DNA from: Psammoneis japonica
Taxonomy: Eukaryota
Length of the DNA stretch: 64,000 nucleotides
Assembly (NCBI GenBank): GCA_008632985.1
Contig: QPGO01000124.1
Coordinates: 1-64,000 of the forward strand
Direction of reading: 5' to 3'
Numbering within the stretch: position 1 is the stretch's first letter; each line of letters begins with the position of its first letter. Shown here in pieces: positions 1,020-37,898 of this stretch. The position numbers were made by a program, and so were the translations under genes. A model generated the notes under the pieces. It had not been told where the DNA came from and searched no databases. It saw nothing but the letters and a program-made list of their open reading frames with translations.

Positions 1020-1660
1020 AAGAGGCTCTTGGCAGCCACAGTGACCTCAAAAGAAGACCAATGCAAGATGATTGTTGGAGTTTTGCCAGAATGTTGTCAT
1101 GCTGTTTGTGAACCAGCACACTTGCCCTGACATGTTTCTTGCCACCAGCCAAGTTGCAAGGCTCAACCTGAGCCCCAAATGACCCTGTGCTGCTGCTGCC
1201 AAGACTCTGGTTTTTGATGTGCCTCAAGAGAACTTGCCACCAGCCAAGACATCATGTTCTCATTTCCCATGAGCTTGTCAGGTCTTGGCTGGCAGGTTGA
1301 TGCTGGCTTGGCAGCTCTCTTTGATTGGGGGAACTGGGTTTGGACAACTCTGTGCAATCTCATGCTGGCATTTGGCATGGAAGTTGCATCTTCAGTCAGC
1401 TCATTTGTGCTCAAGAACCCTTGAAGCTGCCCAAGCAGCAAGCACCTCCTGCCTCCTCACATGCTTTGTGCACTTTCAAATGTTTCCAGAAGTCTTGTTG
1501 GTCAGGATGTGTGTGTTCCTTCAGGACCTCTGCTCATGCACAAATGTTTGAAGACAACCAAGGTGTGCTCCACCTGGCAACCAGCCACACTGTGCACTGC
1601 CAGCTGTGCCAAATGCACCCACTCATCAAGTGGTGCTGGCTCTGCCCTCTGCCCATCAGA
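1020..1660 (+). mobile_element. Ty1/Copia retrotransposon RT C-terminus/RNase H relic, heavily mutated
   Basis: 1020-1235 translates, with frameshifts, to EALGS...HTCPDMFLATSQVARLNLSPK*PCAAAAKTLV..CLKRT, resembling Copia NTRPDIxFAVSQVARFxxxPKxxHxxAVKxIxRYLKxT. About 1545-1590 gives MFEDNQGVLHLAT, resembling the Copia RNase H FEDNxGAxxLA motif. Confidence 0.75.
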
Positions 1661-2489
1661 GGCTGCAACACAGTGGTCTCCACTTTTTAAAATTGTCAAC
1701 AAGCAGAATTTGAAAAATGCCAGCAAAAGTGCTCAACAAAGCGCAGCTGTTTTGTGCTTTGTTTCATCTGATGTCTCATTGGCTTTTCTCACACAAGCTT
1801 CAATCAAGTGCGTGCAATGTTCAATTTGGCTGGGACAGAAATTCATTTTTTGTGATGCATGGTTTGGTTTCAATGGTCATCAATTTGAACTTGTTTTAAC
1901 TTTGTCCTCCCCACTCATGTGCCTGTGTCTTTGCGCGCTTGCAGTCTGCTCCGCGCATGCCCATGACCCACCCTCATTTTAAATTTCTCTTTGCTGCTTC
2001 CCAGATTTGTGCAGCCCATTGGTCTGTGGTGTTTTCAGCATTTTTTTTATGTGCACACTTTTCCACACACTTCACAACAGCACACCCCCTCCCCAAAAAT
2101 CGAAAAATGAGAGCGTGCACTGTTGTGATTCATGTGGATTCTGTGTGTGGTTGCAAATCTGCAAATCAGCAACCAGCCATGGCTGTGAAAGACTTTGTCC
2201 CATTGGCCAATGACAACAGCTCTCAATTTGTGGTGAGCCCCCCCCTCTGGCTGGTCAAGATGGGTTTTGATTGGGGCGTCACTTGAGTTTTGTGAACACG
2301 AGTGTGCTGTCATGAATCCACCGCATCCAAGAATCATCATCCAGAATGCCATGCTCTGGCATGTTGTTGTGTGCACGCATGTCACAAGCTTTTCTGCAGC
2401 ATTGGCATGATTGCGCATGTCAGACTTTTGCATCCAGAATCACAACAAGTCAGAGCTTTGCATCCAGAGTCATCACAAGTTGCCACAAA

Positions 2490-2785
2490 TGACACTCTTC
2501 AAACAAGGCATGTGCAAAAAGAGGTTCATTGGTTTTTTTTTTGTGCACTCACTGACAATCCATCCGTCTTCTCCAATTTTTGTGTCCAGATCCAGAAAGT
2601 CTGCAGGCAGTGCTTGTTCCCACAGCTCTCAGAATCACACGTGTGAAATGGTGCATGTGCCACAAACAACACTGTTCAAACAAGGTGTGCACAAAAGAGG
2701 TTTGTTGGTTTTTGACATGTTCGCTGATGTTTCACCCATCTTCTCCAATTTTTGTCCAGATCCAGAAAGACTGCAGAGGCAGAGA
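2490..2785 (+). repeat. Degenerate direct duplication (~120 bp shared, ~180 bp spacing)
   Basis: acact-ttcaaacaagg...aaaagaggtt...tcttctccaattttt...tccagatccagaaag occurs at ~2492-2610 and again at ~2669-2780. Confidence 0.8.
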
Positions 2786-3129
2786 GTGGGGAAGAGACCC
2801 CAATGAAGGTTGCCTGAGTTGTTTCTCTGCTGTTTCTGGTCCATGCTCCAAATGTGTCATCATCAATGAACCATGTGCAGCACGGGAGGTGCGGGACAAA
2901 CTTGGTCATTGCCACATAACTTTGTCATTCATGTGGTGCCTTGTGCAGTGTGGTGCAGATGCGGGCAGTGCTTGTTCCCACAGCCATTGCATCAAGTGCA
3001 TTCTGTGGCCCTTGAGATGTTTTTTGCTTGCTCACATTCTTTCTTTCTGTGTTTTCTTTTAGTCACAGGGGTGGAGCTGGGTGCTCAATGTCATGCACCG
3101 CACACTGGCGTCCATGTTGCTCCAGAATC

Positions 3130-3600
3130 ATTGGTGCCAGATGCACCAACAAGCCCATTTTGCCACCCCCATTGGACATGTTGGTTCATCCATGTTGTGC
3201 TCTCACAATGTGCTCTGCACTTTTTGGCAATGAACAAGGTGGATCAGAGCAACAGCACTTGAGCTGCAAACTCACCTGCTCCAAATCAGTGGCATCAGAT
3301 GCTCTGGCAAGTCCATGTTGCCATTCCTGTGGGTTGTGTTGGTTCATCCATGCCACACTCTTGCAGCATGTTCTGCACTTTGTGGCAATGAACAAGGTGG
3401 ACCAGAGCAACAGCAGTTCAAATCATGGAACAGCAGCTCCTGCTGCAAACTCACCTGCTCCAGAGTCAGCGCGGTGCCGGATGCACAGGTGAGCCCATTT
3501 TGCCGTTCCCATTGGTTGTGTTGCTTCATCCACACTGTGCTCTCACAACATGCTCTGCACTTTTTGGCAACAAACAAGGTGGCTGCCAGCAGCGGCACTT
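3130..3600 (+). repeat. Three degenerate tandem copies of a ~155-185 bp unit
   Basis: gg(t/c)(g/a)..agatgc...ccat.ttgcc...ttcatcca...ctctgcactt..tggcaa..aacaaggtgg recurs at ~3132, ~3289 and ~3473. Confidence 0.85.
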
Positions 3601-6145
3601 CAAGAAAGAGAGCTGCAGCAGCTGCTGCAAACTGGTGTGTTGTTGTTTCCGCCAGCATCATCCAAATTAAATGCAAACAACAAAATGGAGCACAATTTGC
3701 AATTCAAATGATTTTAATTTGCAGGTTTTGCAGGGACAGAGGGTGGGCACTCTCACAGGAAAAATGGGTGGCTGTTTCACTGTGAAGCGTGGTTTCCTCA
3801 TGGGACCGGGGGGGGTCAGACCTCATGGCACAAAAATGCTTGACTGTGACAGCTGACATGTCATCACAACGCACACAACTGTCAAGGTTTGAAACCATGG
3901 AATTTTTAAATGCAAGGAAAAAACATGGCCATGAGAAAGGAGGTTTAGATCACCACAACACGCGCTCTGATGCCCCCGCGGCAACAAGTTTGTCATGTCC
4001 TCATGGTCAACAAGGCGGGTGCCCAGCCCACTTGTGAGCAGGCCAGTTTTCTCACCAAATCCCTGACTCCAGATCTCTTCCCAAACAGAGCAACAAGCTG
4101 AAGGTCCAAGGAGGCTGCTGCTGGCAGATTGTTGGCAGCGCCATCATTTGTTTGTTCTGCTTGTCGCTGGACACAATGGGGCAATTGCGCCAAACTTTAA
4201 GAAGCAGATCTGCAGTGCAGCCACCAACCCTCCCCCACTGAAGCATGTGTTAGAACACAACAATTGATGGTGGCCTGACATTGTGGATGTCATGGGCTGG
4301 AAGGTTTGCATCATGCCAGCACTGTGAAGATGGCTTGTGACTTGCTTCCAACCAATGAGGTTGCTGGCTGCAGGCCGGTGCAACCCAGTCTGGCCCAGCT
4401 GTTGTTGCTTGTCTTGTGAGTCTCTGACAAAAGACAGAGACCACATTCTTTCATGCCTGGCTGGTGAATCTTCTTTGTGCCAGAAGTTCTTGCAAGGTTT
4501 GCAGGGCTGTTGCAACAAACTGGGTTCAACACCTCCTCGTCTCTGACATTTTGGCTTCTGTCATCTTCCCTGTGTGCAAGCTTGGTTCAGTGGGGGGAGA
4601 TGGTTTGTTTGGATGAGACAGATTGCTGGTTCCAGTCTCTGTGGAATGCCCAAAATGACACAGACTGGCACCAGTTTTTCAATGGTCATTTTTTGGCTTT
4701 TGAAAAGTGATCCAATTGGCTCATTTGGTCAGCTCAGGTCTTTTTTGGCAGCAATTGTGCTCACCAGTCTGAGAACAAAAGAAGACCTTCTGACTGGCTG
4801 GCACAAATCAAACTCCACTTGGTCATCTGGGAGAGCTGGCAGGAGCTGTGGAAAGATCCCAACCAAAACACTGCATGCTGGTGGCACAATCATCTGCTTG
4901 ACATTGTCTCATGGAGGCAGAGTCAACTGCTGTGAGCAACAAAAGGGAGCGCCAAGAGAGCATCTTCTGTTGAAAAGATCATACAGCACTGCTGATGCTG
5001 CAAACTCAGCTGAGAAGAACATGGGGCTTGCTTGGCTGAAAAAAATCAGAGTTGGATTGCCACGGCAGAGCTGAGGAGGGTGAGCAGCAGCCTTCAAGGT
5101 GTGCCGTGCTTCGCAGCACCCACACTGTCATCTTGCCAGCTGCTTTTGTTGGCCCAACCATCTCCGGGCAGGGCAGCACCTCTTTTGGCCAAACTTTTTT
5201 CCTTCTGCCATGCTGGCCAGTGAGCTGTGGAAAAGCAGAGCCAGGTTGTGCTGGCGTTGCTGGGCAAAGGTGCTGCAGCATTTGGAAGCTGGATTTTTTG
5301 TCATTTGTTTGTCACACACGCTGTGATTTGGTCAAAGCACAGGAGTGTTGTTGCCACCAAAAACCCTCTTTTGTGTGCCTTGTGCCGGCTGCGTGCGAGA
5401 GCACTTTCTTGTTTGCAAAAAATTTGTGGTTGGTTGTGAAATCTGCAAGGGAGAGGGAGAGAGCCACGGAGCGCCTGTCTGGCGATCTGCCATCCAGTCA
5501 ACAGCCCAGTCTGTGAAAGTCTGAGATGGGGCGGCTGGCTCGTTCAGAGCTCAGAGGCCGAAGCTTTGCAGCCACCATCACACTGAAGGGGGCTGTTGGC
5601 ATTCTCGCTCAGCAAGCCACAACGCAGAGTCTAGTTGAGCATGGCTCGGGCGTTTGAAGCATTGTTCCTTCTTTCTTGGCGGGAGAGACGCCGGGAAAAA
5701 AGCGCCAAAACCCCCGCTGAGGCTATCTACAGTACGACTGAAACGGAATGTTCCCTCTATTCTTTTTCTTTGTATGCGCATAAAATCATTGAATATAAGT
5801 TATGCAGTAAAAAGGTATAAATACTCTTAGAGTTCTTAGTTAGACATATGCGTTTTCAGTTGCTGAATAAGATCCAAATAGATCCAATTTGATCCAATTA
5901 CCAATCTTGCGAAAAATTTTGGATTTATCCAACCTTCGTGAGCGTACACGATCAAACCGTTGGCGGCGAAACGGATGTCTTCCCGCCCAAAGTCAGGTTT
6001 CGCGTTGTTGCCTGTTGCTATGGTTGCTACCGTATGTGCTGCTTTTGATTATCTCATGTTGATCTCGGTTTGGCATGTCATTCAGGTTGTAAGGGCAGAG
6101 TATATACAAGTCTTATTCGCCACTGTTGTAGTCTAGGAGGGCACC

Positions 6146-7440: not shown

Positions 7441-7629
7441 CCTTCAGTTGAAGTTGTTCCTGGTGCGAACTAGAGGCTACATTACTTTCGCTCCATAGGT
7501 TCCAATTTTATCGTAACTTTGTCCATAAGGCACGAATCTCATAGCCAGTGTCCTATCGCAGGTAGCCTTTCAATGCTTGCACACTTTAAAAATGCTACTG
7601 CTTGGATGGTGCACACTATATTCTGAAGT

Positions 7630-8295
7630 CAATTGCGACTTGCTGTCGGAGCTGATTGCGGAGGAAGAAAACGCCGCGACAAGCACTGCTGGAACGAACA
7701 CGAGACATGTTGACTGAACACAAAGAGCGCACAATCCCACAACGACCATTTCAAATTGCCGAAGACAAGCTCAGCGACGTTGTTGCTTCGGCTTGTCAGA
7801 ATTGGACTCTTGCAACAATCTTTGCATGGATCGCGAGATGGCTTCTTCTTCTTCTTCTTCTTCAAAACAACAGAAAGAATGCTCCACTTTTGATTGTGCA
7901 CTTCCCCCCCAGGGGTGGCTCCTGGTGCTTGCATCTTGGCAGCATTCTTCAGCTCTGTCCAAGCTTGGTCATCTTTGCTGCCCTCTCCTGGAGCTGCAAT
8001 CAACAGCTTGCACATTTGCAGGACAAGCACGCTGGTGGATGTTTGTGTGAAGCTGGCTCCACCACTGAGCTTCTGTGGTGGTGTGGCTTGCCCCCTCTCC
8101 CCCATTGACAATGAGCAAGAAACAACCATCAACCAAAGAGAGTGATGCAAACTTCTGCAGAGAGCACTTTCCAAACCAGCACAACCTCACACCACATGTT
8201 CTTGGTCCACACAGACATTTTTTCCCATGCTGGCCAAATGGACGAGTCAACTCCAGCAGCAAAGCTGCACATCATCAAGTCAAGAAGTGAAGGAG

Positions 8296-8346
<51 letters not shown>

Positions 8347-9560
8347 AGCCGCTGGTGCTGCCATGTGCAGAGCTGCCATCTGCCAAAAACAAGCAGCAGC
8401 AATGTGGCAACAATGGTCTGCTGGCACGGCAGCTGTGGCACATGACAGGTGCACAATGTCAAAAGCAGGCAATTGAGAGAATCTGTTGAGCTCAGATTGT
8501 TCCATGGGTCAAATGCAGAGCTGCTGTCCAGCAGGTGGTGCAAGCACCCACTGCCACTGCTCAGGCCAACCTGGTGTTTGGCAAACCAAGTGGCATCGCA
8601 GGCCAGCTGCACTTGGGGTGAGTGTGCGACACTTGAGAAATTTTGTGTCTTCAAGACAAATGAAAACAACAAAATGCATGCTTGCACATTTTCTGAGCTT
8701 GTCAGGTGAGTTTGGTGCTGTGCACATCACAAGCATCAGCTTCTTTGCCACATGGGATTTTCCTGGAGCAAGCTCTTCTTCAATGATGACCCGCTCAGTG
8801 CAGCATGCAAAAAGGCCGCTCAAAATGCCCACTCCTTGCTCTTGAGTGGCTGGCTTGCATGCATGCTGGGAGCAAGCCACACACTGTTTCAGGCGAGAGA
8901 GAAGGAGCCCAACTCTTTTTTTTTTGCAAAATCATGAGTGCGCTGAATGGCAAGACACAAGCAAACATGTGGCAATGACAGGCATGCCCATGCACACCAA
9001 AACCTCCTCAGCCAAATGAAAAACTTGCAGAGACAACTTTTCACAAACCCAGCTGCCAAGAACAATGGAGTGTGATTCTTGCTGCAGTGTGCACATTTTC
9101 TTGTGGAGGACAAGCACAGAGGACACATGCCTGGTGCAAGAATTGCTGCAACACAGTGAAGCAACAGCTGGGTTGTGTGCAAGCTGGGTTGATTGACTCA
9201 TCAAACCTTGGGCACTTGTCCTTGCAAACTGCAAAGCAATGAAATGCAGCCATGTCATTGGATGGAACATGAACAAATGACAACAAAAACACCATCCAAA
9301 GCAACTTCAACCAATGATCCATCATTCTGAAGTGTGCTGCCACCATTGTGCAGAACAACAGAAAGGTCAGGGATAGAGATCTTTGGGGTCTTGAGCAAGC
9401 AGGCCTTGACATCAGAAGGAGAAGCAACAACAAGCTTGCAAACAATGACAGTGGGCCAGTTGCTGGATGTCCAACACTTTCAGAGCGAAATCATTTTGGC
9501 CTGGACCGTTTTCCTGCTCTAGTTGATTAAATTTTGTGTCATGCAAAAGTAAAATGCAGC
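7630..9560. other. TpA- and CpG-depleted block (degenerate repeat/TE)
   Basis: Almost no TA between 7630 and 9510 (one seen near 9374). CG is retained mainly at the left edge (7630-7840) and scarce inside. Confidence 0.85.
8298..8346 (+). repeat. (GA)n microsatellite
   Basis: Direct reading of the agagagag... run with one interruption. Confidence 0.95.
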
Positions 9561-12865: not shown

Positions 12866-13587
12866 CAAAGACTGATTACTGCAGTGTGTTCGAATTTTTT
12901 CGCGTGTTTTCTTGATATGAATTCAATGTAATGGGGGCGTTCTGGATCTGGATGGATGGGGAGGGTACACCCGCTCCAGACGTGCATTATCTGGGCGCCA
13001 GACGTGAACACACGGAAGAAACGGGAGCAAAAAAGATTTCGTCAGTGCTTGGAATGTTCACTTTAGATACTTCAATCCTGCGCATCTTGTACCGGCATGC
13101 GTACTTCAGTGGTTTATGAGAAATACCACATCAAGTGAATCAAAAGCGAATAAGTCTCAAATAGAAACATTGATTCAAGTCCTCCCTGTCAGATGAGATA
13201 CGAACGATGATAGGTGTCCCAATCTTGCGTTTTGGATGCCGGAATCGATGCCATGATAATACGAAGGACAATCACAAATCTGTGCGTTTATGTTTGTGTT
13301 TTTCGGAGCGGCCGCCATTGTCGTCGACCTGCCCCGGCTCCTTTCCCGTTGTCGGAGGGAGATTTTGGATTTTCTTTTGTACAGTATGGGGTAAGCCGCG
13401 CGTTCGCACGCACACCAACATCGAACAGAACACGGCGGAAGGCGGAACACTCGTGTAGTGCGACTGACTCTGCGCTATGCGACGGTTGAGGTTGTTGCTG
13501 GTTATTGCTGGCGTTTGTCGGAAGTGGACTCTTCACTCGATCTTTGCGTCAAGTCTGGTGTGTTCTTTTTCTTTAACAAACTCTACA

Positions 13588-14556
13588 ATGCTTGCTCGTC
13601 TGCTGGGGGTGCTTCTCTCAGCTTCCTTTGTCAGTTCTGCCCAAGCTTGGTCGTCGTCACTACCCTCCTCCTGGAGTCGCAATCAACAACCGGCTTTTAC
13701 GGGACAAGCCCCCGTGGATGTATATGACGCTACGGTTGAGCTTCTATGGCATTATACGAATGAAAAAAGAAGCCAGTATGGGTTAAGCCAGCTTCGATAC
13801 GACAGCGAACTTTCCAAGGCAGCACAGCAGCATGCGGTGTGTATGGCACGAAACGGGTACTTCTCTCATACCGGCTACACAGGATCAACTCTGGGGGATC
13901 GAGTCAAAACGACAAGCTACCGTTATAGATCGATTGGCGAGAATCTTTTCATGCAACAACCGAACAACAGTCCAGTAGCCGCAGTGGATGGATGGATGAC
14001 GTCGAAAGGCCATCGAGAGAATCTTCTCAACCCAGACTTTACTGAGGTCGGTTACGGATATTGTCCGGTAGGTGACACCCACTACTACGTCCAGGTGTTT
14101 GGCAAACCGATTGGCACCCCAGCAGTGCAGGGTGAGGGTGACACTCGAGAAATTCTGTATCTTTTGACGAATCAAGCGCGAAGGAACTCAAACTTGCATT
14201 ATCTGAGCTCGTCAGCCGAGCTTAACGCTGTGGCACAACAGCATGCGGAAAACGCTGCTCGCCGGGGTTCATTTTCATCCATTGATGACATTCGTCGCCC
14301 AGAGAAGTATCAATACAGTTTCTTTGCGGCAGGCTTTTTCCAGAGTGAACCCTTCAATGACCCGTACAGTGCAGTAAAAGGGTGGCTTGAGAAGCCTAAC
14401 TCCTCACTCTTGAGTGGTCAGTTCACCGATATGGGAGTTGGCCATGCTGTCTCAGGAGAATCCCATTACTATGTACAAGTGTTTGGTACTCCATCGCATG
14501 AAGGACCTCCGCAGACTCGCTTGATGGGCGGCGACAGCCGTCGCGTCTACTATTGA
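13588..14556 (+). CDS. Secreted protein with two tandem CAP/SCP (YkwD-like) domains
   Basis: Signal peptide MLARLLGVLLSASFVSSAQA. First domain TNEKRSQYGL..L.YDSELSKAAQQHA..MA..GYFSH...GENL...W..SKGHRENLLNPDF.EVGYG...YYVQVFG. A second degenerate copy also ends YYVQVFG. Confidence 0.9.
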   Translation: MLARLLGVLLSASFVSSAQAWSSSLPSSWSRNQQPAFTGQAPVDVYDATVELLWHYTNEKRSQYGLSQLRYDSELSKAAQQHAVCMARNGYFSHTGYTGSTLGDRVKTTSYRYRSIGENLFMQQPNNSPVAAVDGWMTSKGHRENLLNPDFTEVGYGYCPVGDTHYYVQVFGKPIGTPAVQGEGDTREILYLLTNQARRNSNLHYLSSSAELNAVAQQHAENAARRGSFSSIDDIRRPEKYQYSFFAAGFFQSEPFNDPYSAVKGWLEKPNSSLLSGQFTDMGVGHAVSGESHYYVQVFGTPSHEGPPQTRLMGGDSRRVYY

Positions 14557-23315: not shown

Positions 23316-23759
23316 CGTCCAACATCTGCGAGTAGTTTGGCGGAAGTTGACCGGACCTGCCGCTTTGATGGCGATTGAAAAAATGTGTAATGGACGCCGA
23401 TTTCAAAAAATTTAGTCATGTACATGAATTTCAACAAAATGTATCATTGAATATTTGATATTTTTGATTCGTCTTAGTCTTTGAAGAAACCATTTCTGAG
23501 AAAAGTACCAAATGAATACATACATTCTCACAAACATACATATACTGTAATGCCTGTACGTGTCATATTCAAATATTCACATTTTTCTGGAATAACATTG
23601 TACATACGTACAGACATTGTCGCGTCGGTGACTCGTCATCATCTTCTATCCTCAGGAAAACAACCTAATAATTGTTCAAGCTTCAGACCTGTTAGAATTG
23701 TCTCGATGAAAATGTCACGCATTCATTTTGACGCGCGAAATAGATCTATGGGGGGGCGG

Positions 23760-25320
23760 GGAATTCATGGTGCCGGCATCAACGCACAGGCAGAAGGTGC
23801 CATACGACCGCACAGCATGGGCGAGTGCTGTGGTGCACCGGCTGTGCAGGTGTGTGGTTGCAGACCTGGTCTGTCACATGGTGCGGTGCACACTCTCTAT
23901 GGTGCCAGAATGAAGCTGCAGTGCCCGACCACTCTCCACCACACCAACCAGAGAGGCTTCAGTGCCGAGCACGCACGCAAAAACAGCTGCTTGCAAAATG
24001 TGAGCATCTTTCCCACATGATGTGTGTGGTGGGACAGAAGCTGCAAAGCAATCTGACTGCATTGTGTGCCACAAATTCAAGACTCTTCTTGCCTTTCTGG
24101 CAGATCAGAGCCCAGGCAAAAAGCCCCAGCTGCAGTTTTTGTTTGCCAGCACCACCCTGTTCTCTGCTTCCCCACTGCTCTGGCTGAGCACGCTTCTTTT
24201 TAAAACTTTGAAAAAGTGGTTGTCTCTTTCTGCCCAAAAGAGCACTGTTCCAGCCCTGCAGTTTGATGCTTGTTGCAGTTGAAGTTTCTGAATTTCTTGG
24301 CTGGCACAGCACACTTCTCTGGGTGAGCACAGCAGCTCTCACAAATTTTGCTGCACCCATCAGAGGCTCAAACATGTTCTTTTTGCTGTGCCAGAAATGT
24401 CCACAAAGGCCAACAGACCCAGCATTGGCTTGTTCTGAGATGCTGTGTGGAAAGGTGCCCTTGAGCAGCTCTCCTTTGTGCAGTGCACATGAGGCGCTCC
24501 AGCTGCTTTGAGAGGAGAGCGGGTTTGCTCAATGTTTGTGCATTTTCTGTTGCACAGTTGTTTCCTTCACTCCACTGCACACCTCACAGAGCATGTGAAT
24601 TGTCCAAAAATGAGAGTTGACAAGGTGGCAGATTTGCACATCAGAGGAAAACATTGCGCCAGTGAGAACCTTGCCACCCCTTTTTGGGACACTTCTGTTT
24701 GGACACCTTTGCCATGCACACTCAAACTGGATTTCTCAACAACTGCAAAACAAAGTGTTGTTCACAAAAAAAATTCAACATGCATGGGGAGAGACATGGA
24801 CAAAGGCGCTCAGGTGGCGGTGGTGAGGAGAGCACGGGGGTTCCCTTTGTTTTCAGCACTCTCTGGAAAAGCCAAAATGGTGTGGTGGATGAGACCCACC
24901 AACACTGTTGAGAAAGACTGACAAATGTTTTCAATTGTCAGGCACTTGTTGTGATCAAGTTCTGAGTTGCAATGGATTCTTCCATGGATCATGATTTTTT
25001 CATTCCTCTTCAGAGGTGTTCTTGAACAAGTTTGCTCAAAACTCTCTCTTCCAAGGGTCAGAGGTCAGAGAGGGGGATCTTGACCCAACTTCCACAAGAA
25101 ACCCACCTTTCTTGCATTTGGCCACAGCATTTCAATGTGGGCTCTGTGTGCACCTCCAGTCATTCACATGCTCTTCTTCCTTTTGAGGTGCCGCAACGGG
25201 CTGGCTTGGTGCTCTTTGCTGGGGGCACATGCCTTGCAACAATCACTGTCTGCACAGCAGCCCAGGTTTTGCACTTCCAGGGGAAAGCAAGGGATGCTAA
25301 GTTGTGTGTGACATGAGAAA
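23760..25320. other. TpA- and CpG-depleted block (degenerate repeat/TE) between two paralogous genes
   Basis: Only a handful of TA seen (~23803, 23897, 24201, 25298). CG persists at the left edge and fades inward. Confidence 0.85.
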
Positions 25321-27991: not shown

Positions 27992-28282
27992 TGCCGAGTA
28001 TCACGGTCATCTATATTCATTCGTATATTCATTCGTGGGTGTCAGCCTGATGTCAAAAGTGTCAAAAGGATGTCAACGATGACACTTTCTAGAAACCTCT
28101 TCTCCTTTCTCGATACATCTCGATGCCTCTCGAAAGATTGTTTCTTTATATTTCTACGCGTTTCTTAGTATTAATTCTACGAGATTTCGGAGTAGCCGAA
28201 TCTCTTTCATTTCTTCTCACAATGTTGGCAACAGTCAATTTTTACAACGCTACTTTATGCTGTTACTTGGCGCCACTTGGCA
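27992..28282 (+). repeat. 5' LTR
   Basis: TG...CA termini. Matches 32595-32885 with about 9-10 differences. Confidence 0.95.
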
Positions 28283-28355
28283 TAGTAAATTTACTCCCAA
28301 ACACTTATTCATCTCTCTTGAGACATATCTACCGATCATATTGTCCTGACCAGAC

Positions 28356-29963
28356 ATGTCAGCAGAAAACTGCCCGTTCGAACTTGAGCGTCCTGACCGC
28401 TCTGAGGAAGAGCGACGCAAAGACCAATTCGTGTCTTTTGAAAGCCCCATTGATCCTGACGATCCAGATGGGCTTAAAACTACGATCGAGGTACGTAAGT
28501 TAGCTTCAACTGAACCGGAAGATGTTCTTACCTTCTGGTCAAACTTCGATGAACTTGTCAACGATCTCGGCGCGGCTGAAGGACAGCCACGTTTCCGGCT
28601 CGTGACCAGACTTATGACCGGAACACCAAAAGACGACTGGGAAATCGTCGTAAACGAATACGAAAACCGCGACCAAGTTACATTCGACACTTGTCGTGAA
28701 GAATTTCTGCTCCAACACATGGACAGAGAAATTGCCCTTGACACCAAGGAATGGCTTCAAAGCCTCAAGAAACCCAGGAACCAAACTGTCAAGTCATTTG
28801 TTGATGACATCCGTCGCTTTAATAAGTTGATTGATGTCATGCCTGCGCCAACCGAAGATGACGCCGAAAGAGTTCCGTCATTCACGGAAGCGGAACTATC
28901 CGCAATCCTTCGAAAATGTGGACCAAGATCATGGGCCGAAACTCAGACTAAAGCCCGTCTTCGCAACTTAAACTTGAACGACCAAGCTCAACACTACGAG
29001 ACTCTCCAACGTATGGAACAACGTGGTGACAAAGGGTCTGCCGACAACAACAGACGCAACAACAATCGGAATCGACGCAACAACGGTCAAAATGCGCGTC
29101 GCGGCCAGAGCAACGACCAAAATCGCGATGCCAGGAACAGGAACCAAAACAATCGTGAACAAACATGTCCAATCCATGGCGTTGTACATCCGAACGGTCA
29201 AGAGTGCAATGTCATCCGTCGTGAACGTGAAAATTATGAGCGGAACCGCGCAAATCGGAGTGCGCCTAATCAACAAAATGGCTCTCGAAACGAGCCGACA
29301 CACCGCTGTCCTACACGGAGCCGCACACGGAACGTCGAAAACAACAATGTGGACTCCAAAGCTAGTCGCTCCGCTTCTAACGATGTCGACAGCGTCGCGT
29401 CAGATGACATCAACGACATTTTTGAAGATGTCACGTCTCTTCTAGACGATTCCATCGAATCCGAAATAGAAGACAATCTCACCACGGAAGCACGTGTCCA
29501 GATGATTGACACTCATTCTGGAATGCACAAGTTCCGTGTTGCTCCACTCGATGCCGGCGCAAATCGCAATTTTGTGAAGCGCTCAGCCCTTCGCGGGATT
29601 CCTCACAAAATCAGTAAATGCAACGTTCCCGTTAAAGGCCGTTACAGTGCCGTTAATCTGCACGAGATTGCGACGCTGACATTGAAGTTCCCAGACTTCG
29701 CATCGTCCAAGAAGGTTTCCGTCGATGCTTGTGTGGAAGACAAAGCCGCAGGAAAACACGACATTGTCATCGGAAGAAAAACCGCCACAGAAATGGGACT
29801 CGTTTTTGATTTTCGACATCAAACAATCACGTGGGACGATGTCACCCTATCCATGCGATCCAAGGGCTCTTTCGACCAAGTCGAAGTTAATGCATTCATC
29901 CCGGCGATGCTGAATTACCCAAGTTCTTCCAGAATGCCGTCAACCGTCAGGTTCGAGGTATGA
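28356..29963 (+). pseudogene. gag: Gypsy gag + aspartic protease
   Basis: Capsid-like N-terminus (WLQSLKKPRNQTVKSFVDDIRRFNKL), Zn-knuckle-like CPIHGVVHPNGQEC, and protease APLDAGANRNF...HDIVIGR (DTG mutated to DAG). Frameshift near 29900. Confidence 0.85.
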
Positions 29964-30072
29964 CGAGCAATCGCACGACAAGCACAATTGTCGCGACATG
30001 GTTCTACGCTGCAAACACCTTGATGACGATCAACAGCACCAACTCATCGAACTCTTCGGATGACACCCGCAA

Positions 30073-31400
30073 TTGTTCGATGGCACACTTGGAGCTGCAC
30101 CCGGTAAACCCGTCCATTTGACCCTGAAACCAGGATCGCGTCCATGCTGTGCGAAAGCTTGCACTGTTCCGCAAGCGTTGTGTCCCATGGCTCGCAAAGA
30201 AGTGGATGAATTGGAAAAAATCGATGTCATCATGCGCAAACTTCACTCTCCCTGGGGCGCACCCTGTCTTTTCCGATCGAAGAAGAGCGGTGGCATCCGT
30301 TTCTTGTCCGATTTGCGGAAACTCAACGAGTGTCTCGAACGGCATCCATGTCCACTGCCTGTTGTCGACGACGTCGCATGGAAAATGAACGGCTTTACCT
30401 GTGCGACATGTTTGGACCTCAACCGAGGCTACTGTCACTTCGTGCTTGACGACGAGTCAAAAAAACTCTGCGGCATCATCCTGCCGTGGGGCAAGCATTG
30501 CCACAACCGCCTGCCGCAAGGAATCAAACCGGCAAGCGACATTTTTCAAGCTTGCATGACAGACATTTTTCATGACATGGAAGACATCATAGTTTGCATC
30601 GACAACATCATCCTCTTTGCCAAGAACGACTTCAACCATCACTGTCAACGACTCGAACTCGTCTTGCAACGGCTCCTCGCGAACAATCTTCACGCACATG
30701 TCAAAGAATCCCATCTCGCCGCCAAGACCGTCGACTGCTTAGGCTGTGCCATGACTGCAAAAGGCATTCAGCCTCAGAAAAAGAAAATCCCACCCTTGCT
30801 TCGCTTCGCTCGCCCTCAAAACCGTCGACAATTGCGTGGTTTCATCGGGTTCGTGAATTATTACAAGAAATTGTGGCACCGACGCAGCCACACTCTTACG
30901 CCCTTAACTGCGCTGTCATCAGACAAAGTCAAATTCAAGTGGACTGACGTCCACACGGAAGCTTTCAATCAGATGAAAAAAATTGTGGCGCGCGAAATCC
31001 TCCTCCGATTCCCCGACTTCTCTCAACCTTTCAAGATCTATCCGGATGCGAGTGATTGTCAACTTGGTGCAGTGATTGCTCAAGATTTTGATGATGGCGA
31101 ATGGCCAATTGCATTCTACAGCCGAAAATTTCTCAAGCGCAACGAAACTACACGACAATGGAAAAAGAGCTGCTGTCGCTCGTGGAAACGACCGAAAATT
31201 TCAAAAGCATCCTTTTTGGTCATCGATGCCACCCATTTGCCGATCACAAAAATCTTACATTTGACAAATTCAAGTCAGAACGCGTCAAACGCTGGCGTTT
31301 ACTTCTCGAGGAGTGCGATTGCTCTTTCGAGTGCCTGCCAGGCCACAAGAATGTCGTGGCTGATTTTTTGAGTCGCCATCCCCTTGTCCAAGTCGATCAA
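30073..31400 (+). pseudogene. pol: Gypsy reverse transcriptase and RNase H
   Basis: SPWGAP, IRFLSDLRKLN, LDLNRGY, RLPQG, VCIDN (YxDD site), QLRGFIGFVNYY, DASD, IAFYSRK. After a frameshift at ~31130: NYTTMEKELL and DHKNL. Confidence 0.92.
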
Positions 31401-32573
31401 AGCGATTACGAGGAAATGACTTCGTTGGAAATCGATCCTTCAATATTCCCCGTTACTTTCGACATTATCGCCGACCATCAGAAAAAAGATTCTGCTCTTC
31501 AGCAACGACTCGACAAGTCCGAATCCTACTCAGCCGAACTGTTCAACGGAAAACAGATTATCCTTTACAAGAACAAGATTGTCCTCCCTCCAACGCTTTT
31601 TCCTGCAGTTCTACGGTGGTACCATGAAACTCTCTGCCATCCTGGTGCTAATCGCACCTGCCAAACTTTGGCTTCACATTTTTACATTCGCGACATGCAG
31701 ACGAAAGTCCGTACTTTTGTCCGTAAGTGCCGCACGTGTTCCAAATCCAAGCGCACTACGGCAAACTATGGCGAATTACCTCTTCCAGATACTACTTATA
31801 AACCTTGGCAGGCAACTCAAGTCGATCTTTTCGGTCCCTGGACGTATGCCGACAAAAATGGTGTCGATCGCAAAATCAGAGCCGTTTCAATTATTGATGT
31901 CGCAACCCGTTGGGTCGAACTCGCGAACTATAAGTTCAAAACGTCCGAAGACATTTCACTTATCGTCGATCGCGAGTGGTTTTGTCGCTATCCGCGACCA
32001 GAAATTGTCATTTATGACAACGGTTCCGAATTCACTTCCGAGTTTACAGATCTCCTCTACAGTTATGGTGTTAAACCGAAACCTACAACAATCAGAATCC
32101 TCAAGCCAACGCGTTCGTTGAACGTATTCATCAAGTGATAGCCGATTCTCTCCGTGCGATGGATCTCCCTTCTCGCGATCATGATGAAGACACAATTCAT
32201 GGAATTTTGCAATCCGTTGCATGGGCCTTGCGCAGTACTACCATACTGCCCTTATGTCGTCTCCCGGACAAATTGTCTTCGGTCGAGACATGATCATTTC
32301 TGCTACTTATCTTGCGAACTGGAAAATGATTAATACCCGTCGCAAGCGCGATGTCCTACGCAATAATCTCCGCGAAAACGCAAAACGTCTTACTTACGAC
32401 TACAACATCGGCGATCAAGTCTTCGTTATGACAAAGACATCCAACGCAAACTCAACACCAAAGATGGTCCTTTCTGTATCGTACGTGTCCATACCAATGG
32501 AACCGTTACCATCCAGCGCTCGCCTCACGTCACTGAACGTATCCATATCCGCCGTCTTCACCCTGTCTTCTAA
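31400..32573 (+). pseudogene. pol: Gypsy integrase (HHCC + DDE), with frameshifts
   Basis: WYHETLCHPG...CRTC; QVDLFGP; IIDVATRW; YDNGSEF. Ends [10 protein letters not shown]. No chromodomain. Confidence 0.9.
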
Positions 32574-32583
32574 CGTCTCAATT

Positions 32584-32594
32584 GGGGAAGCGAG
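32584..32594 (+). promoter_or_regulatory. Polypurine tract
   Basis: ggggaagcgag immediately 5' of the 3' LTR. Confidence 0.8.
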
Positions 32595-32885
32595 TGCCGA
32601 GTATCGCGGTCATCTATATTCATTCGTATATTCATTCGTGGGTGTCAACCTGGTGTCAAAAGTGTCAAAAGGATGTCAACGATGACACTTTCTAGAAACC
32701 TCTTCTCCTTTCTCGATACATCTCGATGCCTCTCGAAAGATTGTTTCTTTATATTTCTACGCGGTTTCTTAGTATTAATTCTACGAGATTTCGGAGTAGC
32801 CGAATCTCTTTCATTTCTTCTCACAATATTAGCAACAGTCAACTTTACAACGCTACTTTATACTATTACTTGGCGCCACTTGGCA
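32595..32885 (+). repeat. 3' LTR
   Basis: TG...CA termini; direct repeat of 27992-28282. Confidence 0.95.
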
Positions 32886-33793: not shown

Positions 33794-34729
33794 TTAACAA
33801 TGCGATTCTACTTGTAGTGACTCGTCGTCGTCCAACACAGTTTCACCATCATTTTCATTCTCCGTGACTTCCACTTCAACAAAGCGCTTGCGAAGAATTG
33901 GAGACAGTAGAAGAATAAATGCAGCAACAGCGGCACAACTAATCGAAGCGACACGCATCCGCCGGAGTCTGGTATTAGAAGGGATATCCCAGCAAAAGGA
34001 GCAGCCTGCACTTTCGCCGACGCGAGCGGAACAAGTGTCACAATCTCCGTAGGCAATAATGCTCGGCCAATCCACATCATTCGAGGGGCCCACAAAAGGA
34101 TCGTAGGGAGTATAGTTGGCGGCTGGGTCATATATGCTCTCCGCAAGAGCCATCAAGTTTTTCAATGCTTTATCAACCTTGGCGTCAGGGCAGGACTCGT
34201 GAGAATCGCACGCCAAAGAACTGAAATAGATCAGTTCTGATGAAATCGTGTCGTTATTGCATATGACCGGCTCCTCGGTCTGGTCCATTCTTGGGCAAGC
34301 CCATTCATAACCCCAATCCACAGCAAAAATGGCATCATAATAGAGGTCATAGAAAGGCCCTGCTTTTTCGCTCCTGGTGTCCTCCAATCTCGTCTCGTAG
34401 CGAACCCCAGTCACGCGCATTTTCCCTTGATAGTCAATCACGTCCCGGGTTTTGAGGCGTCGTTCATAAGCCTTGGCAATGCTGCTGGCCACAATGAATA
34501 AGAAAAAGGAGAATAGAATGGTAAAATAGAAGACAGCAGTTCGTTTTGCGAGGCGAGATCGGATGTCTTGGCGGAGCCTGAGTTCTCTGTGCCGTTCACA
34601 CTTCCAGGAGCACACACACAGTGACGCAAAGAAGAGCACTAGCGAAGCAAGAAGTCCATAATGGGCAAGGGTGCTGGCGATTTCGGGGTCAATTTTTTCA
34701 TTGTGGCTTTCAAGAATGTTCTCGTCCAT
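33794..34729 (-). CDS. Hypothetical membrane protein (3 predicted TM helices, Cys-containing loop)
   Basis: Intact 311-aa ORF with three hydrophobic segments and normal composition. Confidence 0.7.
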   Translation of the reverse strand: MDENILESHNEKIDPEIASTLAHYGLLASLVLFFASLCVCSWKCERHRELRLRQDIRSRLAKRTAVFYFTILFSFFLFIVASSIAKAYERRLKTRDVIDYQGKMRVTGVRYETRLEDTRSEKAGPFYDLYYDAIFAVDWGYEWACPRMDQTEEPVICNNDTISSELIYFSSLACDSHESCPDAKVDKALKNLMALAESIYDPAANYTPYDPFVGPSNDVDWPSIIAYGDCDTCSARVGESAGCSFCWDIPSNTRLRRMRVASISCAAVAAFILLLSPILRKRFVEVEVTENENDGETVLDDDESLQVESHC

Positions 34730-35163
34730 GTGAGATTCTGTTTCAACAGAATTTGTGAGACGAGATCATCCTTCTTTTTTTGTCCAATCACGAGTCACCA
34801 GCAAACCACGATCCACGACCTGACCGCGCATGACCCGCGGTTTGCCGAAACTCGGCAACATTCAGGAAACATGACACCACACAACTCCAATCTTCACACT
34901 CGCCTCAAGCCAAATCTGTCCTTGCCACAAGGGCACGGATTCTTGGCCTTCAGAATTCCTCGTCCCATCCTGCTGTGCACACACCAGCAAGGCGCGGCGA
35001 GATCTCTCTCTCCAAGAGAGATGTGTTTTTCTCTTTTTTGAGCTTGCAAAAAGGCTTTTGGTGACAGAGCCAGGTGCACTGCACATGGCACAGCAGGAGA
35101 GGCTTGCAAGCTCAAGAGAACATCTGTGCAAACCAATTTCCATGAAAAAAATGGCTTTGACAG

Positions 35164-37898
35164 GAGCAGCCAGATGTCATGATTTTTGAGCCAACCCAGA
35201 GAGTTTTCAGCTCCCCCAAAAGGCAAAAGAGAGCATCAAAGTGCCACACAGAAATGATGTGTTCCAGCCATGCATGAACCAAATTGGGCACAAAAATGAC
35301 ATTTGTGTGGTTTTCCAGTGGGCTCTACTTGGACAAGCTTTTGCCACAGAAAGCACAGATTTGTCCAAGTGCTGGTGTTTTTCAACGCTGGCAAATCTTG
35401 CCGCATCAGTGTTGCAGCATCATTGTTTTTGTGCTGCCAATGCACTTCATTGCAACAAACAAATCACAATGCAGTGGATGATTTTTGTTCATGAAAAATG
35501 TCAAAAATTTGTGTGCACCAAGTGGTTGCATGTCAGCACTGGGGTGGTTGTTTGTGACATTCCTGGCAGGCAATCTGCCCACAAAAGCTTTGCCATGCCC
35601 AGTGCACTGTTGCACAATCAGTGCTGAGTCCACTGCAGAGGAGTTTGTGGCACATGTCCCATGAGGACTCTTGATTGAGTGGTGCCACAAAAAATGTTGC
35701 CCAGCTGTTCATGCTCCAGACACTGGCAAAAGCCCACATGATTCTTTGCACTTAAAATGGGTTGTTGTTTTGTGTGGCACCTGGGGCTGGAGAGCACATC
35801 AAACAACAAAAAGAAAATGGCAGATTCAGGGGAAAAATGACCCAAGAAATGACACAAAGCCGCTTGCGCCAAACTTGGAAATTGAGTCTGAGCATGCACC
35901 AGGAACAGGAAAGGAAAAAGAAAAAAGGAGGATCAGATGGCAAGCTTCAAGAAAAGAAGCTCAACAAAAAGGCTTGCCCCAGACTCTCGTCCCTCTGTGT
36001 GTGTTGTTCTGCGATGTCTGCAGCACCGGCTTTGGCTGGGTGCTTGTGTCATCATTGTGAGCTGGCTGTTGCATCTCAGAAAACAAAAGCTCTGTTGCAG
36101 CCAGAAAAGCAATGCAAAAAGATCATGTGTGCAACATGGCAGCCTGCTTGCAAGAAGTCCCCAGCCGGGCCACAGGCAGACCCAGGGCAAACATGTGCCT
36201 TGATGACGCTGTGCATGCCTGCTTCTCTGCTCCTTTCTTGGTGGCGATCATTGCTCAACAAATGTTGGCAAAGCTGCAAATCTGTCTGTTCCTTCTCTGC
36301 TCCTTTGTGGTGATCTTCAAATTTGCAACCACCAATCCATCTCTGATGCCAAGCACACAGGCCACATTGACATGGCAGATCCAGCGTCTCACCTGCCTCC
36401 ATCTGTCACATCCGTCCGTGCTGCCTTCGTGACTCGTGACTGATGTTTTTTGTTCTTTCCACCGAACTTCTTACGTCACACGTGCGTCATAGAGCCTTTG
36501 ACACGTGGGCAACCCGAAAAGTTGAACCGCTCTGCGAGCAGCCATGTCATGATTTTTAGCCAGCCCAGAGAGTTTTCAGCTCCCCCAAAAGGCAAAAGAG
36601 AGCATCAAAGTGCCACACAGAAATGATGTGTTCGAGCCATGCATGAACCAAATTGGGCACAAAAATGACATTTGTGTGGTTTTCCACGTGGGCTCTAACT
36701 TGTGGACAAGCTTTTGCCGCAGCAAGCACAGATTTGTCCAAGCGCTGGTGTTTTTCAATGCTGGCAAAACTTGCTGCATCAGTGTTGCAGCATCATTGTT
36801 TTTGTGCTGCCAATGCACTTCATTGCAACAAACAAATCACAATGCAGTGGATGATTTTTGTTCATGAAAAATGTCAAAAAATTGTGTGCACCACATGATT
36901 GCATGTCAGCACCAAAGTGGTTGATTGTGACATTCCTGGCAGGCACTCTGCCCACAAAAGCTTTGTCATGCCAACGCACGTTGCACAATCAGCACTGAGT
37001 CCACTGCAGAGGATTTGTGGCGCATGTCCCATGAGGGCTGATTGAGTGCCACAAAAAAAATGTTGCCCAACTGTTCGTGCTCCAGACACCAGCAAAAGCC
37101 CACACAATTTTTGCACTTGAAATGGGTTGTTGTTTTGTGTGGCACCTGGGGCTGGAGAGCACATCAAACAACAAAAAGAAAATGGCAGATTCAGGGGAAA
37201 AATGACCCAAGAAATGACACAAAGCCGCTTGCGCCAAACTTGGAAATTGAGTCTGAGCACGCACCAGGAACAGGAAAGGAAAAAGAAAAAAGGAGGATCA
37301 GATGGCAAGCTTCAAGAAAAGAAGCTCAACAAAAAGGCTTGCCCCAGACTCTCGTCCCTCTGTGTGTGTTGTTCTGCGATGTCTGCAGCACCGGCTTTGG
37401 CTGGGTGCTTGTGTCATCATTGTGAGCTGGCTGTTGCATCTCAGAAAACGAAGGCTCTGTTGCAGCCAGAAAAGCAATGCAAAAAGATCATGTGTGCAAT
37501 GTGGCAGCCTGCTCGCAAGAAGTCTCCAGCCGGGCCACAGGCAGACCCAGGGCAAACACGTGCCCTTGATGACGCTGCGCATGCCCGCTTCTCTGCTTCT
37601 TTCTTGGTGGTGGTGATCATTGCTCAACAAATGTTGGCAAAGCTGCAAATCTGTTTATTCCTTCTCTGCTCCTTTGTGGTGATCTTCAAATTTGCAACCA
37701 CAAATCTGTCTCTGATGCCAAGCACGCAGGCCACATTGACATGGCAGACCCAGCGTCTCACCTGCCTCCATCTGTCACATCCGTCCGTGCTGCCTTCGCG
37801 ACTCGTGACTGATGTTTTTTGTTCTTTCTACCGAACTTCTTACGTCACACGTGCGTCATAGAGCCTTTGACACGTGGGCAACCCGAAAAGTTGAACCG
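35164..37898 (+). repeat. Tandem duplication of a ~1.37 kb TpA/CpG-depleted unit (35164-36529 and 36536-37898); the depleted block starts near 34860
   Basis: Both copies start gagcagcca..tgtcatgattttt and end cacgtgggcaacccgaaaagttgaaccg. Near-identical spurious ORFs appear twice in the ORF track. Confidence 0.95.

What the first reader, a model, noticed from the sequence alone, without database searches (positions are those of the whole stretch)
29300..31350. Repeat-targeted TpA->TpG/CpA hypermutation caught in progress: a mirror image of fungal RIP
Seen: residues expected from Gypsy consensus motifs are replaced exactly as TA->TG or TA->CA predicts. RHPYPLP reads RHPCPLP (tgt), FTYAT reads FTCAT, GYYH reads GYCH, GKYxY reads GKHCH (cat, cac), YIDD-site reads CIDN (tgc), DYLGY reads DCLGC, DASDY reads DASDC, and EEYDYxFEY reads EECDCSFEC. 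Protease LLDTG reads PLDAG (cta->cca; gat-acc->gat-gcc) and TDHKNL reads ADHKNL (ttt-acc->ttt-gcc). Both outcomes occur, so A->G in TpA hits both strands. CpG is still abundant here, so this is not 5mC decay. Established: RIP converts CpA/TpG to TpA, the opposite direction; TadA/ADAT and ADAR deaminases prefer an A preceded by T/U; Pol eta makes WA->WG errors. Inference: a DNA-level defence process (adenine deamination, a modified base, or error-prone repair in heterochromatin) inactivates repeats. I know of no description of it but cannot check the literature.
Basis: partly seen in the sequence, partly recalled or inferred. Interest (0 to 1): 0.93.

Follow-up and report, generated by a model that had tools for sequence, protein, structure and literature searches.

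The report
TpA-erasing DNA hypermutation in a diatom
A dead Gypsy retrotransposon in a diatom genome has lost most of its TA steps to TG or CA, the same unusual DNA hypermutation reported in 2026 in one unrelated alga, and nearby stretches show it driven to completion.

Summary
The region is the pol of a broken Ty3/Gypsy LTR element (27992-32885). Of 18 positions where 13 relatives conserve Tyr, 6 are kept, 8 are Cys and 4 are His; other conserved residues are kept at 258 of 330. Among single-step changes at conserved positions, 18-20 A:T>G:C transitions lie at TpA and 2 elsewhere. The RT core has 11 TpA; the same stretch in 14 relatives has 45-86. CpG is intact.

The process acts on integrated DNA. 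The 5' LTR has TG at four sites where the 3' LTR has TA, and both strands are hit. Accurate-read contigs reproduce the sequence, so an artefact is unlikely.

The window also holds four 1.5-5.6 kb intergenic tracts with TpA O/E 0.00-0.05 and CpG O/E 0.17-0.34. One is a decayed paralogue of an intact CAP-domain gene.

The host is a diatom. The same TpA signature was described in April 2026 in Bigelowiella natans (bioRxiv 10.64898/2026.01.13.699255). This is therefore a second lineage with new targets, not a new kind. The enzyme, probably a DNA adenine deaminase, is inferred.

The parts
27992..32885 (+). Degenerate Ty3/Gypsy LTR retrotransposon; no clear target-site duplication seen
   Evidence: Self-BLAST LTR pair, LTR alignment, Pfam gag/RVT_1/RNase H/integrase, colinear with about 1420-aa gag-pol relatives; flanks read
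27992..28282 (+). 5' LTR. It carries G at 28224, 28227, 28259 and 28262 (TpG) where the 3' LTR has A (TpA).
   Evidence: 8 substitutions within the LTR, all transitions, 4 of them TG (5' LTR) against TA (3' LTR). Purine/pyrimidine-space identity is 98.99% against 95.99% in letters.
32595..32885 (+). 3' LTR, preceded by a purine-rich tract (GGGGAAGCGAG)
28356..32570 (+). gag-pol remnant read in shifting frames. One base is missing relative to other copies at about 29893, 31130, 32093, 32237 and 32431.
   Evidence: tblastn frame changes; other copies in run X1 have an extra base at exactly these places (table 4)
28500..31500 (+). Graded TpA-depleted tract. TpA O/E falls from 0.67 at the 5' LTR to 0.10 at 30240-30739 and recovers to 0.60 by 31490. 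CpG O/E stays at 1.09 or above.
   Evidence: Sliding profile, per-250-bp counts, inferred TA>TG and TA>CA events from 29974 to 31332 and family-majority TA at 28903, 30231, 31230, 31234
1..5632 (.). Saturated tract P1 (runs off the window start): TpA O/E 0.05, CpG 0.17, CA 1.95, TG 1.77. It contains short tandem repeats at 2481-2777 and 3117-3633.
   Evidence: no Pfam family above cut-off in its ORFs
7619..9374 (.). Saturated tract P2: 1755 bp without a single TpA. It is a decayed paralogue of the CAP-domain gene at 13468-14556.
   Evidence: TA-free interval; six colinear HSPs; of the intact gene's dinucleotides, TA 0 of 11 kept (6 TG, 2 CA) and CG 1 of 19 kept (7 CA, 6 TG); weak tblastn match
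13468..14556 (+). Intact CAP-domain gene, the unmutated partner of P2 (TpA O/E about 0.6-0.7 locally)
   Evidence: Pfam PF00188, E 2.2e-37; composition
23750..25298 (.). Saturated tract P3, at single-copy word depth: TpA O/E 0.03, CpG 0.20
   Evidence: One X1 contig of 3505 nt spans it with 13 other letters. They include three CA/TG double swaps and TA/TG or TA/CA differences at 23804, 24201 and 24729.
34659..37829 (.). Saturated tract P4: TpA O/E 0.04, CpG 0.34. It holds a 1.38-kb tandem duplication (35164-36541 and 36536-37910).
   Evidence: There are 59 difference blocks between the two units: 15 CG against TG/CA, 3 TA against TG/CA, 5 clean CA/TG swaps.

Best explanation
The region is the pol of a dead, multi-copy Ty3/Gypsy element in a diatom. 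After it integrated, a regionally confined DNA mutation process turned TpA into TpG or CpA, that is A:T>G:C on either strand. About four fifths of the TpA steps of the RT core are gone. This destroyed 12 of 18 conserved tyrosines, including the Tyr of the YIDN active-site motif. The same process has run to completion in four intergenic tracts of the window. There CpG has also decayed to TpG/CpA, leaving DNA almost free of both self-complementary pyrimidine-purine steps. Shown: the signature, its context specificity, its action on both strands, its regional limits, its action after integration, and that it is present in accurate reads. Inferred: the chemistry is most likely deamination of adenine to hypoxanthine in DNA by a TadA/ADAT2-type deaminase. 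That family's natural substrate is A34 preceded by U33 in tRNA (recalled knowledge), and the Bigelowiella authors propose the same enzyme type. Also inferred: the process is directed at silent chromatin rather than at repeats as such, and the CpG loss in the saturated tracts is ordinary decay of methylated CpG.
For: Tyr-specific loss to Cys or His only (p = 1.0e-4). 18-20 TpA-context against 2 other A:T>G:C transitions in the tract, compared with 2 against 4 in the integrase zone. 11 TpA against 45-86 in 14 relatives, and no 1-kb window below TpA O/E 0.52 in any of 34 related loci. All contigs of other family copies that cover 28903, 30231, 31230 and 31234 have TA where the window has CA (table 3; contexts). 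5' LTR TG against 3' LTR TA at four clustered sites next to the tract. Paralogue comparison of P2 with the CAP gene. Difference classes in the tandem duplication. TG and CA are interleaved at random (runs z from -0.97 to +0.12 in the four tracts), so both strands are hit independently. X1 contigs at word depth about 57 reproduce the TA/CG-free tract P3. The same signature was measured directly in mutation-accumulation lines of B. natans: 230 of 231 mutations in two hypermutable regions were A>G or T>C, and the authors state that all of these GC-biased mutations fall on TpA.
Against: Polarity rests on relatives only 54-60% identical, plus four read-supported sites. No same-family protein was found in the protein collection (best 60-61%). 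The per-site table of other copies was cut (409 rows not shown), so I cannot show that the Cys/His sites are private to this copy. LTR polarity is assumed, not shown. Over the 20 kb laid, window-to-contig changes are symmetric (A>G 92, T>C 88, G>A 85, C>T 83), which fits many copies mutated independently but does not prove it. No genome is held, so no deaminase could be sought. Targeting by silent state is untested. The density of differences in P3 (12 in about 930 bp) is not clearly above some other parts of the window (9-10 other letters per 1-2 kb in contigs at 37869-41007); only the kind of difference is telling.
Confidence: 0.72

Rival explanations
1. Different chemistry, same regional process. 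Thymine in TpA is modified (for example oxidised to 5-hydroxymethyl- or 5-formyl-uracil by a TET/JBP-type oxygenase) and mispairs with G. Alternatively a biased repair step produces T>C at TpA rather than adenine deamination.
For: The two routes give the same strand-symmetric outcome, and the data cannot separate them. That 5-formyluracil mispairs with G and that dinoflagellates place 5hmU preferentially at TpA is recalled, not tested here.
Against: No enzyme or modification data for this organism. The only published proposal for this signature is an ADAT2-like deaminase.
Confidence: 0.15
2. Editing before integration. Element RNA or cDNA was hyper-edited A>I (ADAR/ADAT-like) and then reverse-transcribed, so the changes were inherited at insertion.
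For: A 5' U/T preference is typical of adenosine deaminases acting on RNA (stated in the preprint's Discussion).
Against: Both A>G (12-14) and T>C (6) occur on the sense strand. The two LTRs differ at four TA/TG sites. Non-retroelement tracts, one at single-copy depth and one a decayed gene paralogue, show the same change. That ADARs are confined to animals is recalled.
Confidence: 0.05
3. Sequencing or assembly artefact at modified DNA (bases miscalled in TpA and CpG).
For: The library type of the runs is not on record, and they come from one sample that may be the source of the assembly.
Against: Contigs built from exact 31-letter words at depth about 57, up to 315 kb long, reproduce the tracts with 13 differences in 3.5 kb. 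That needs low-error reads. The Gypsy tract is graded and leaves CpG untouched.
Confidence: 0.04
4. No hypermutation. The Cys/His residues and low TpA are native to this element lineage or reflect ordinary neutral decay.
For: Relatives are only 54-60% identical, and 51 of 84 mismatches are transversions or multi-step.
Against: Tyr is invariant in 12-13 of 13 relatives at eight of the sites, including the catalytic motif. Loss is specific to Tyr and to the TpA context and confined to a 3-kb tract. Other copies have TA at four sites.
Confidence: 0.03

Closest known systems
TpA>TpG/CpA hypermutation of integrated giant-virus and virophage DNA in Bigelowiella natans (Mettrop et al., bioRxiv 10.64898/2026.01.13.699255, April 2026; outline, Results and Discussion read)
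   Same: A:T>G:C transitions confined to TpA, on both strands. Regional, kb-scale tracts. Long-term signature of low TpA with high CpA+TpG. Reverse-transcriptase and transposase domains are enriched among TpA-depleted genes there. By that paper's cut-offs (TpA <= 0.43 and CpA+TpG >= 1.52 per 1-kb window), 11 of 64 windows here qualify.
   Different: The host is a diatom (stramenopile), not a chlorarachniophyte (rhizarian). Targets here are an LTR retrotransposon, a decayed host-gene paralogue and unannotatable intergenic DNA. Depletion is saturated here (TpA O/E 0.00-0.05), against 0.45 for their giant-virus region. CpG is lost as well in the saturated tracts, whereas the word CpG does not occur in that paper's text (0 occurrences). 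There are no mutation-accumulation data here.
Repeat-induced point mutation (RIP) of ascomycete fungi
   Same: Regional transition hypermutation in a dinucleotide context that inactivates mobile DNA in the genome itself.
   Different: The direction is opposite (RIP: CpA/TpG > TpA; here TpA > TpG/CpA). Here one member of a duplicate pair is intact and one tract is single-copy. The properties of RIP are recalled, plus abstracts seen in the search listing.
APOBEC3 or ADAR editing of retroelements before integration
   Same: Deaminase-type transition clusters that cripple retroelement genes.
   Different: Those act on one strand of cDNA or RNA before insertion. Here both strands are hit and the LTRs differ. 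Recalled, plus the abstract of PMC4866542 in the listing.
Decay of methylated CpG to TpG/CpA in silenced DNA
   Same: This accounts for the CpG half of the saturated tracts. 3 of 34 related metagenome loci show CpG O/E 0.24-0.37 with normal TpA, so the two losses are separable.
   Different: It does not touch TpA. The Gypsy copy has lost TpA with CpG O/E of 1.09 or more.
Pol eta WA>WG errors (somatic hypermutation type)
   Same: A>G at an A preceded by T.
   Different: AA>AG should rise too. Only 2 non-TpA A:T>G:C transitions were seen, and ApA O/E is 1.18-1.40 in the tracts.

Membership tests
TpA-specific regional DNA hypermutation (Bigelowiella type) | Mutations are A>G / T>C transitions | tested here: met
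   18-20 inferred TA>TG or TA>CA events in the tract. LTR differences are 8 of 8 transitions. Background divergence from distant relatives adds other changes.
TpA-specific regional DNA hypermutation (Bigelowiella type) | Mutated base lies in a TpA step; other A/T contexts are spared | tested here: met
   18-20 at TpA against 2 elsewhere. TA 0 of 11 kept against 44-83% for the 14 dinucleotides other than TA and CG in the paralogue comparison.
TpA-specific regional DNA hypermutation (Bigelowiella type) | Both strands are hit (both TpG and CpA products) | tested here: met
   12-14 TG and 6 CA in the element. CA and TG are near equal and randomly interleaved in the tracts.
TpA-specific regional DNA hypermutation (Bigelowiella type) | Confined to kb-scale regions of the nuclear genome | tested here: met
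   Four tracts with sharp edges and one graded 3-kb tract.
TpA-specific regional DNA hypermutation (Bigelowiella type) | Elevated de novo rate measured in mutation-accumulation lines | not testable with these tools
   Only indirect evidence: TA/TG and CA/TG differences between the assembly and read contigs in P3.
TpA-specific regional DNA hypermutation (Bigelowiella type) | Target is DNA of foreign origin | tested here: inconclusive
   The Gypsy element is foreign. P2 derives from a host-type CAP gene. P1, P3 and P4 have no recognisable content (0 of 53 ORFs above a Pfam cut-off).
Fungal RIP | C>T at CpA giving TpA enrichment | tested here: not met
   TpA is depleted and CpA/TpG enriched.
Fungal RIP | Both copies of a duplication are mutated | tested here: not met
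   The CAP gene is intact while its paralogue P2 is saturated.
Pre-integration RNA/cDNA editing (ADAR/APOBEC type) | Changes on one strand only and identical in both LTRs | tested here: not met
   Both TG and CA products. Four TA/TG differences between the LTRs.
Ty3/Gypsy LTR retrotransposon | LTR pair flanking gag, protease, RT, RNase H and integrase in that order | tested here: met
   No target-site duplication recognised.

The most novel reading that the evidence does not exclude
One silencing-coupled machine erases both self-complementary pyrimidine-purine steps. It removes TpA by adenine deamination and CpG by (methyl)cytosine deamination, for example through a dual A/C DNA deaminase of the ADAT2/TadA type recruited to silent chromatin. 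On this reading the system is older than the split of diatoms and chlorarachniophytes, acts on any silenced DNA (retrotransposons, viral inserts, pseudogenes), and leaves TA/CG-free 'CA/TG deserts' as its end state.
Probability: 0.2. Interest if true: 0.9.

Novelty: new member of a known kind. Interest (0 to 1): 0.72.

Why it matters
A DNA-level mutator that turns TpA into TpG/CpA was unknown until a 2026 preprint on one chlorarachniophyte. Finding the same signature in a diatom shows the process is not a peculiarity of one alga or of viral inserts. Here it appears partial in a retrotransposon, saturated in intergenic tracts, and in a decayed gene copy. It gives comparative genomics a second lineage in which to look for the shared enzyme. 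It places the phenomenon in a group with genetic tools. It also warns annotators that TA/CG-free tracts with long spurious ORFs (only TGA stops remain) are mutational debris. I found no paper describing it in diatoms. The P. tricornutum mutation-accumulation study reports a GC>AT bias and no such tracts in the passages I read.

Tried and rejected
- No whole genome is held for the window, so the proposed all-copy alignment, genome-wide TpA map and deaminase search could not be run.
- Run search listed three runs of one sample; no RNA holder was listed. X2 behaves like a transcriptome: a 110-nt GT..AG joint at 38230-38341 and cover mainly on genes. It has no cover on P3 and P4.
- The X2 contig stops at 27991, exactly at the LTR start, and runs on unlike the window. 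Its 30-letter continuation is not in the window, so an empty-site allele could not be shown.
- Same-family proteins were sought twice; the best identity was 60-61%, so there was no close copy for polarisation.
- Pfam on 53 ORFs of the four tracts found none above a curated cut-off.
- A purine/pyrimidine-coded self-comparison of the window found no new partner for P1, P3 or P4. Weak non-colinear hits of P3 to the neighbouring paralogous genes were not convincing.
- Strand-coordinated clustering of TG against CA was tested and not found.
- The 5' neighbour of surviving TpA in the tract (A 10%, G 12% against 23% and 17% in relatives; n = 42) gives a hand-computed chi-square p of about 0.06. I treat it as not significant.
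- Earlier-findings look-ups returned nothing on this genome. The listed phage CA/TG items concern other systems.
- One literature query failed on syntax and was replaced.
- The SPLASH paper was irrelevant.
Full report
**What is there.** The finding lies inside a Ty3/Gypsy LTR retrotransposon at 27992-32885 on the + strand. Its LTRs (27992-28282 and 32595-32885) are 96% identical. Pfam finds gag, RVT_1, RNase H and integrase domains in order. Relatives in the protein collection are single gag-pol polyproteins of about 1420 aa at 54-60% identity. The window copy follows them only by changing frame five times. At those five places (about 29893, 31130, 32093, 32237, 32431) other copies in read contigs carry one extra base (table 4). 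The copy is dead. The family is multi-copy: summed word depth in run X1 is about 460-1920 over the element against 54-66 in the flanks, and 921 contigs were laid. The tool warns that this is not a copy number.

**Host.** An AP-3 mu subunit encoded at 17631-18530 has only diatoms among its named homologues: Thalassiosira, Mayamaea, Phaeodactylum, Fistulifera and Seminavis at 59-62% identity. Genes in the window are long and intron-poor. The window is therefore from a diatom and not from Bigelowiella.

**Check of the observation.** I mapped 13 relatives onto the window codon by codon.
- In 29300-31350, 18 positions have Tyr in at least 75% of relatives. The window keeps 6, has Cys at 8 and His at 4, and nothing else.
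- All other conserved residues are kept at 258 of 330 (Fisher p = 1.0e-4).
- In the integrase zone 7 of 8 conserved Tyr are kept.
- The 84 mismatches at conserved positions in the zone split into 12 TA>TG, 6 TA>CA, 2 ambiguous TA>TG or transversion, 2 other A:T>G:C transitions, 7 other G:C>A:T transitions (plus 1 ambiguous), 3 CG>CA, 24 transversions and 27 multi-step changes.
- The transversions and multi-step changes are what 40-45% divergence from the relatives predicts. The striking part is 18-20 against 2 for A:T>G:C at TpA versus elsewhere.
- In the integrase zone the same comparison gives 2 against 4.

Composition agrees. TpA O/E is 0.17 in the RT core with CpG O/E 1.15. The RT core has 11 TpA where the homologous stretch has 45-86 in the 14 of 34 metagenome relatives that cover it. 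No 1-kb window of any of the 34 loci falls below TpA O/E 0.52. That search required two intact motifs, so heavily mutated relatives could have been missed.

The Asn of CIDN is native (YIDN in 13 of 13 relatives). FTCAT sits on an ancestral Phe. ADHKNL sits on an ancestral Ser.

**Polarity and timing.** Among the best-supported rows of the read table, every contig of other copies that covers 28903, 30231, 31230 and 31234 has T where the window has C before A. So the family has TA and this copy has CA. Another copy shows the reverse at 31560, 31778 and 31791 (window TA, contig TG), together with CpG>TpG/CpA changes. Different copies therefore carry different hits.

The two LTRs, identical at insertion, differ by 8 substitutions, all transitions. 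Four are TG in the 5' LTR (28224, 28227, 28259, 28262) against TA in the 3' LTR, clustered at the inner end next to the depleted tract. The TpA profile is bell-shaped: 0.67 at the 5' LTR, 0.10 at 30240-30739, 0.60 from 31490 on. Together with both products on the sense strand, this places the process on integrated DNA and not on RNA or cDNA. LTR polarity itself is inferred.

**The larger picture in the window.** Four intergenic tracts are almost free of TpA and poor in CpG: P1 1-5632, P2 7619-9374, P3 about 23750-25298, P4 34659-37829.
- TpA O/E is 0.05, 0.00, 0.03 and 0.04. CpG O/E is 0.17, 0.17, 0.20 and 0.34. CA and TG O/E are 1.67-1.95.
- The rest of the window has 0.56, 1.01 and 1.11-1.15 for the same measures.
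- P2 has no TpA in 1755 bp, where the mean spacing outside the tracts is 28 bp.
- The sequence is complex, not simple repeat. None of 53 ORFs reaches a Pfam cut-off.

P2 is colinear in six HSPs with the intact CAP-domain gene at 13468-14556. Where the gene has TA, P2 has TG 6, CA 2, other 3, and TA 0 of 11. Where the gene has CG, P2 has CA 7, TG 6, and CG 1 of 19. The other 14 dinucleotides are kept at 44-83%.

In P4 the two units of a 1.38-kb tandem duplication differ in 59 blocks. Fifteen are CG against TG/CA, three are TA against TG/CA, and five are clean CA/TG double swaps. The swaps are expected when one ancestral CG or TA resolves in opposite directions in two copies.

TpA loss reaches further than CpG loss at tract edges, for example 0 TpA with 16 CpG at 34751-35000. 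It stands alone in the Gypsy copy. Three related metagenome loci have low CpG with normal TpA. The two losses are therefore separable.

**Real or artefact.** Run X1 gives contigs from exact 31-letter words at depth about 57, the longest 315 kb. One 3505-nt contig spans P3 and its unique flanks with 13 other letters. Twelve of them lie within 23804-24729. They make 9 events, of which 7 belong to the TA/CG-TG/CA system: three CA/TG swaps, TA/TG or TA/CA at 23804, 24201 and 24729, and CG/CA at 24482. The runs are from one sample that may have given the assembly, and the library type is not on record. This is not independent replication, but it does exclude high-error reads. The density of differences in P3 is not clearly above that of some other contigs; the kind of difference is the informative part.

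**Mechanism.** TG and CA are interleaved at random in the tracts and in the element. Single sites on either strand are hit independently, with no long one-strand runs. ApA is not depleted and non-TpA A>G changes are rare. This argues against Pol eta-type WA errors. The best-supported chemistry is adenine deamination in DNA with a strict 5'-T requirement, as proposed for Bigelowiella on the basis of an ADAT2-like protein. This step is inferred; a thymine-modification route gives the same products. Targeting looks tied to silent, probably methylated DNA rather than to repetition, because P3 is at single-copy depth and only one of the two CAP paralogues is hit. That is also inference.

**Comparison with what is known.** The bioRxiv preprint 10.64898/2026.01.13.699255 (outline, Results and Discussion read) measured this signature directly. 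In two hypermutable regions, 230 of 231 new mutations were A>G or T>C, and the authors state that all of these fall on TpA. Rates were about 1000 times background in an integrated giant virus and a virophage. The paper also reports 124 clusters of TpA-poor, CpA+TpG-rich windows. By its cut-offs, 11 of the 64 1-kb windows here qualify.

The present case differs in host lineage, in targets, in saturation and in the accompanying CpG loss; the word CpG does not occur in that text. It is the opposite of fungal RIP in direction and in its treatment of duplicates. Six literature searches found no description in diatoms. The P. tricornutum mutation-accumulation paper reports a GC>AT bias (passages read).

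**Verdict.** The phenomenon is no longer undescribed: this is a second, independent lineage for a very recently reported kind of genome hypermutation, with features that widen it.

Noticed in passing
window 1-5632, 7619-9374, 23750-25298, 34659-37829: Four intergenic tracts almost free of both TpA and CpG, with CA/TG O/E near 1.9. They carry long spurious ORFs because only TGA stops remain. These became part of the main argument.
   Followed up: yes
window 27987-27992: A contig of run X2 follows the window up to 27991, exactly the first base before the 5' LTR, then continues with sequence not found in the window. It may be an allele with a different structure at the insertion site. No target-site duplication flanks the element.
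   Followed up: partly
window 25378-25540: A short pseudogene fragment at the right edge of tract P3 resembles the C-terminus of the neighbouring gene 25747-26823 (tblastn E 1e-4). That gene is itself a paralogue of the C-terminal part of the repeat-rich gene 19851-23402.
   Followed up: partly
window 35350-35790: Several X1 contigs end or begin here with loose ends, and word depth rises to about 330. A short dispersed repeat seems to lie inside tract P4.
   Followed up: no
window 27152-27218: A CA/GA microsatellite, which the read-laying tool skipped as a repeat.
   Followed up: no
window 46255-61374: A very large, nearly intron-free gene for a SPRY, UBA and HECT-domain ubiquitin ligase, with one ORF of 3691 aa.
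   Followed up: no
window 9680-12922: A 1080-aa ORF joining RNA ligase, tRNA-ligase phosphodiesterase and kinase-like domains: a tRNA-ligase-type protein.
   Followed up: no
L022, L033, L034: Three related Gypsy loci from metagenomes have CpG O/E 0.24-0.37 with normal TpA. Their hosts appear to methylate and decay CpG without the TpA process.
   Followed up: no
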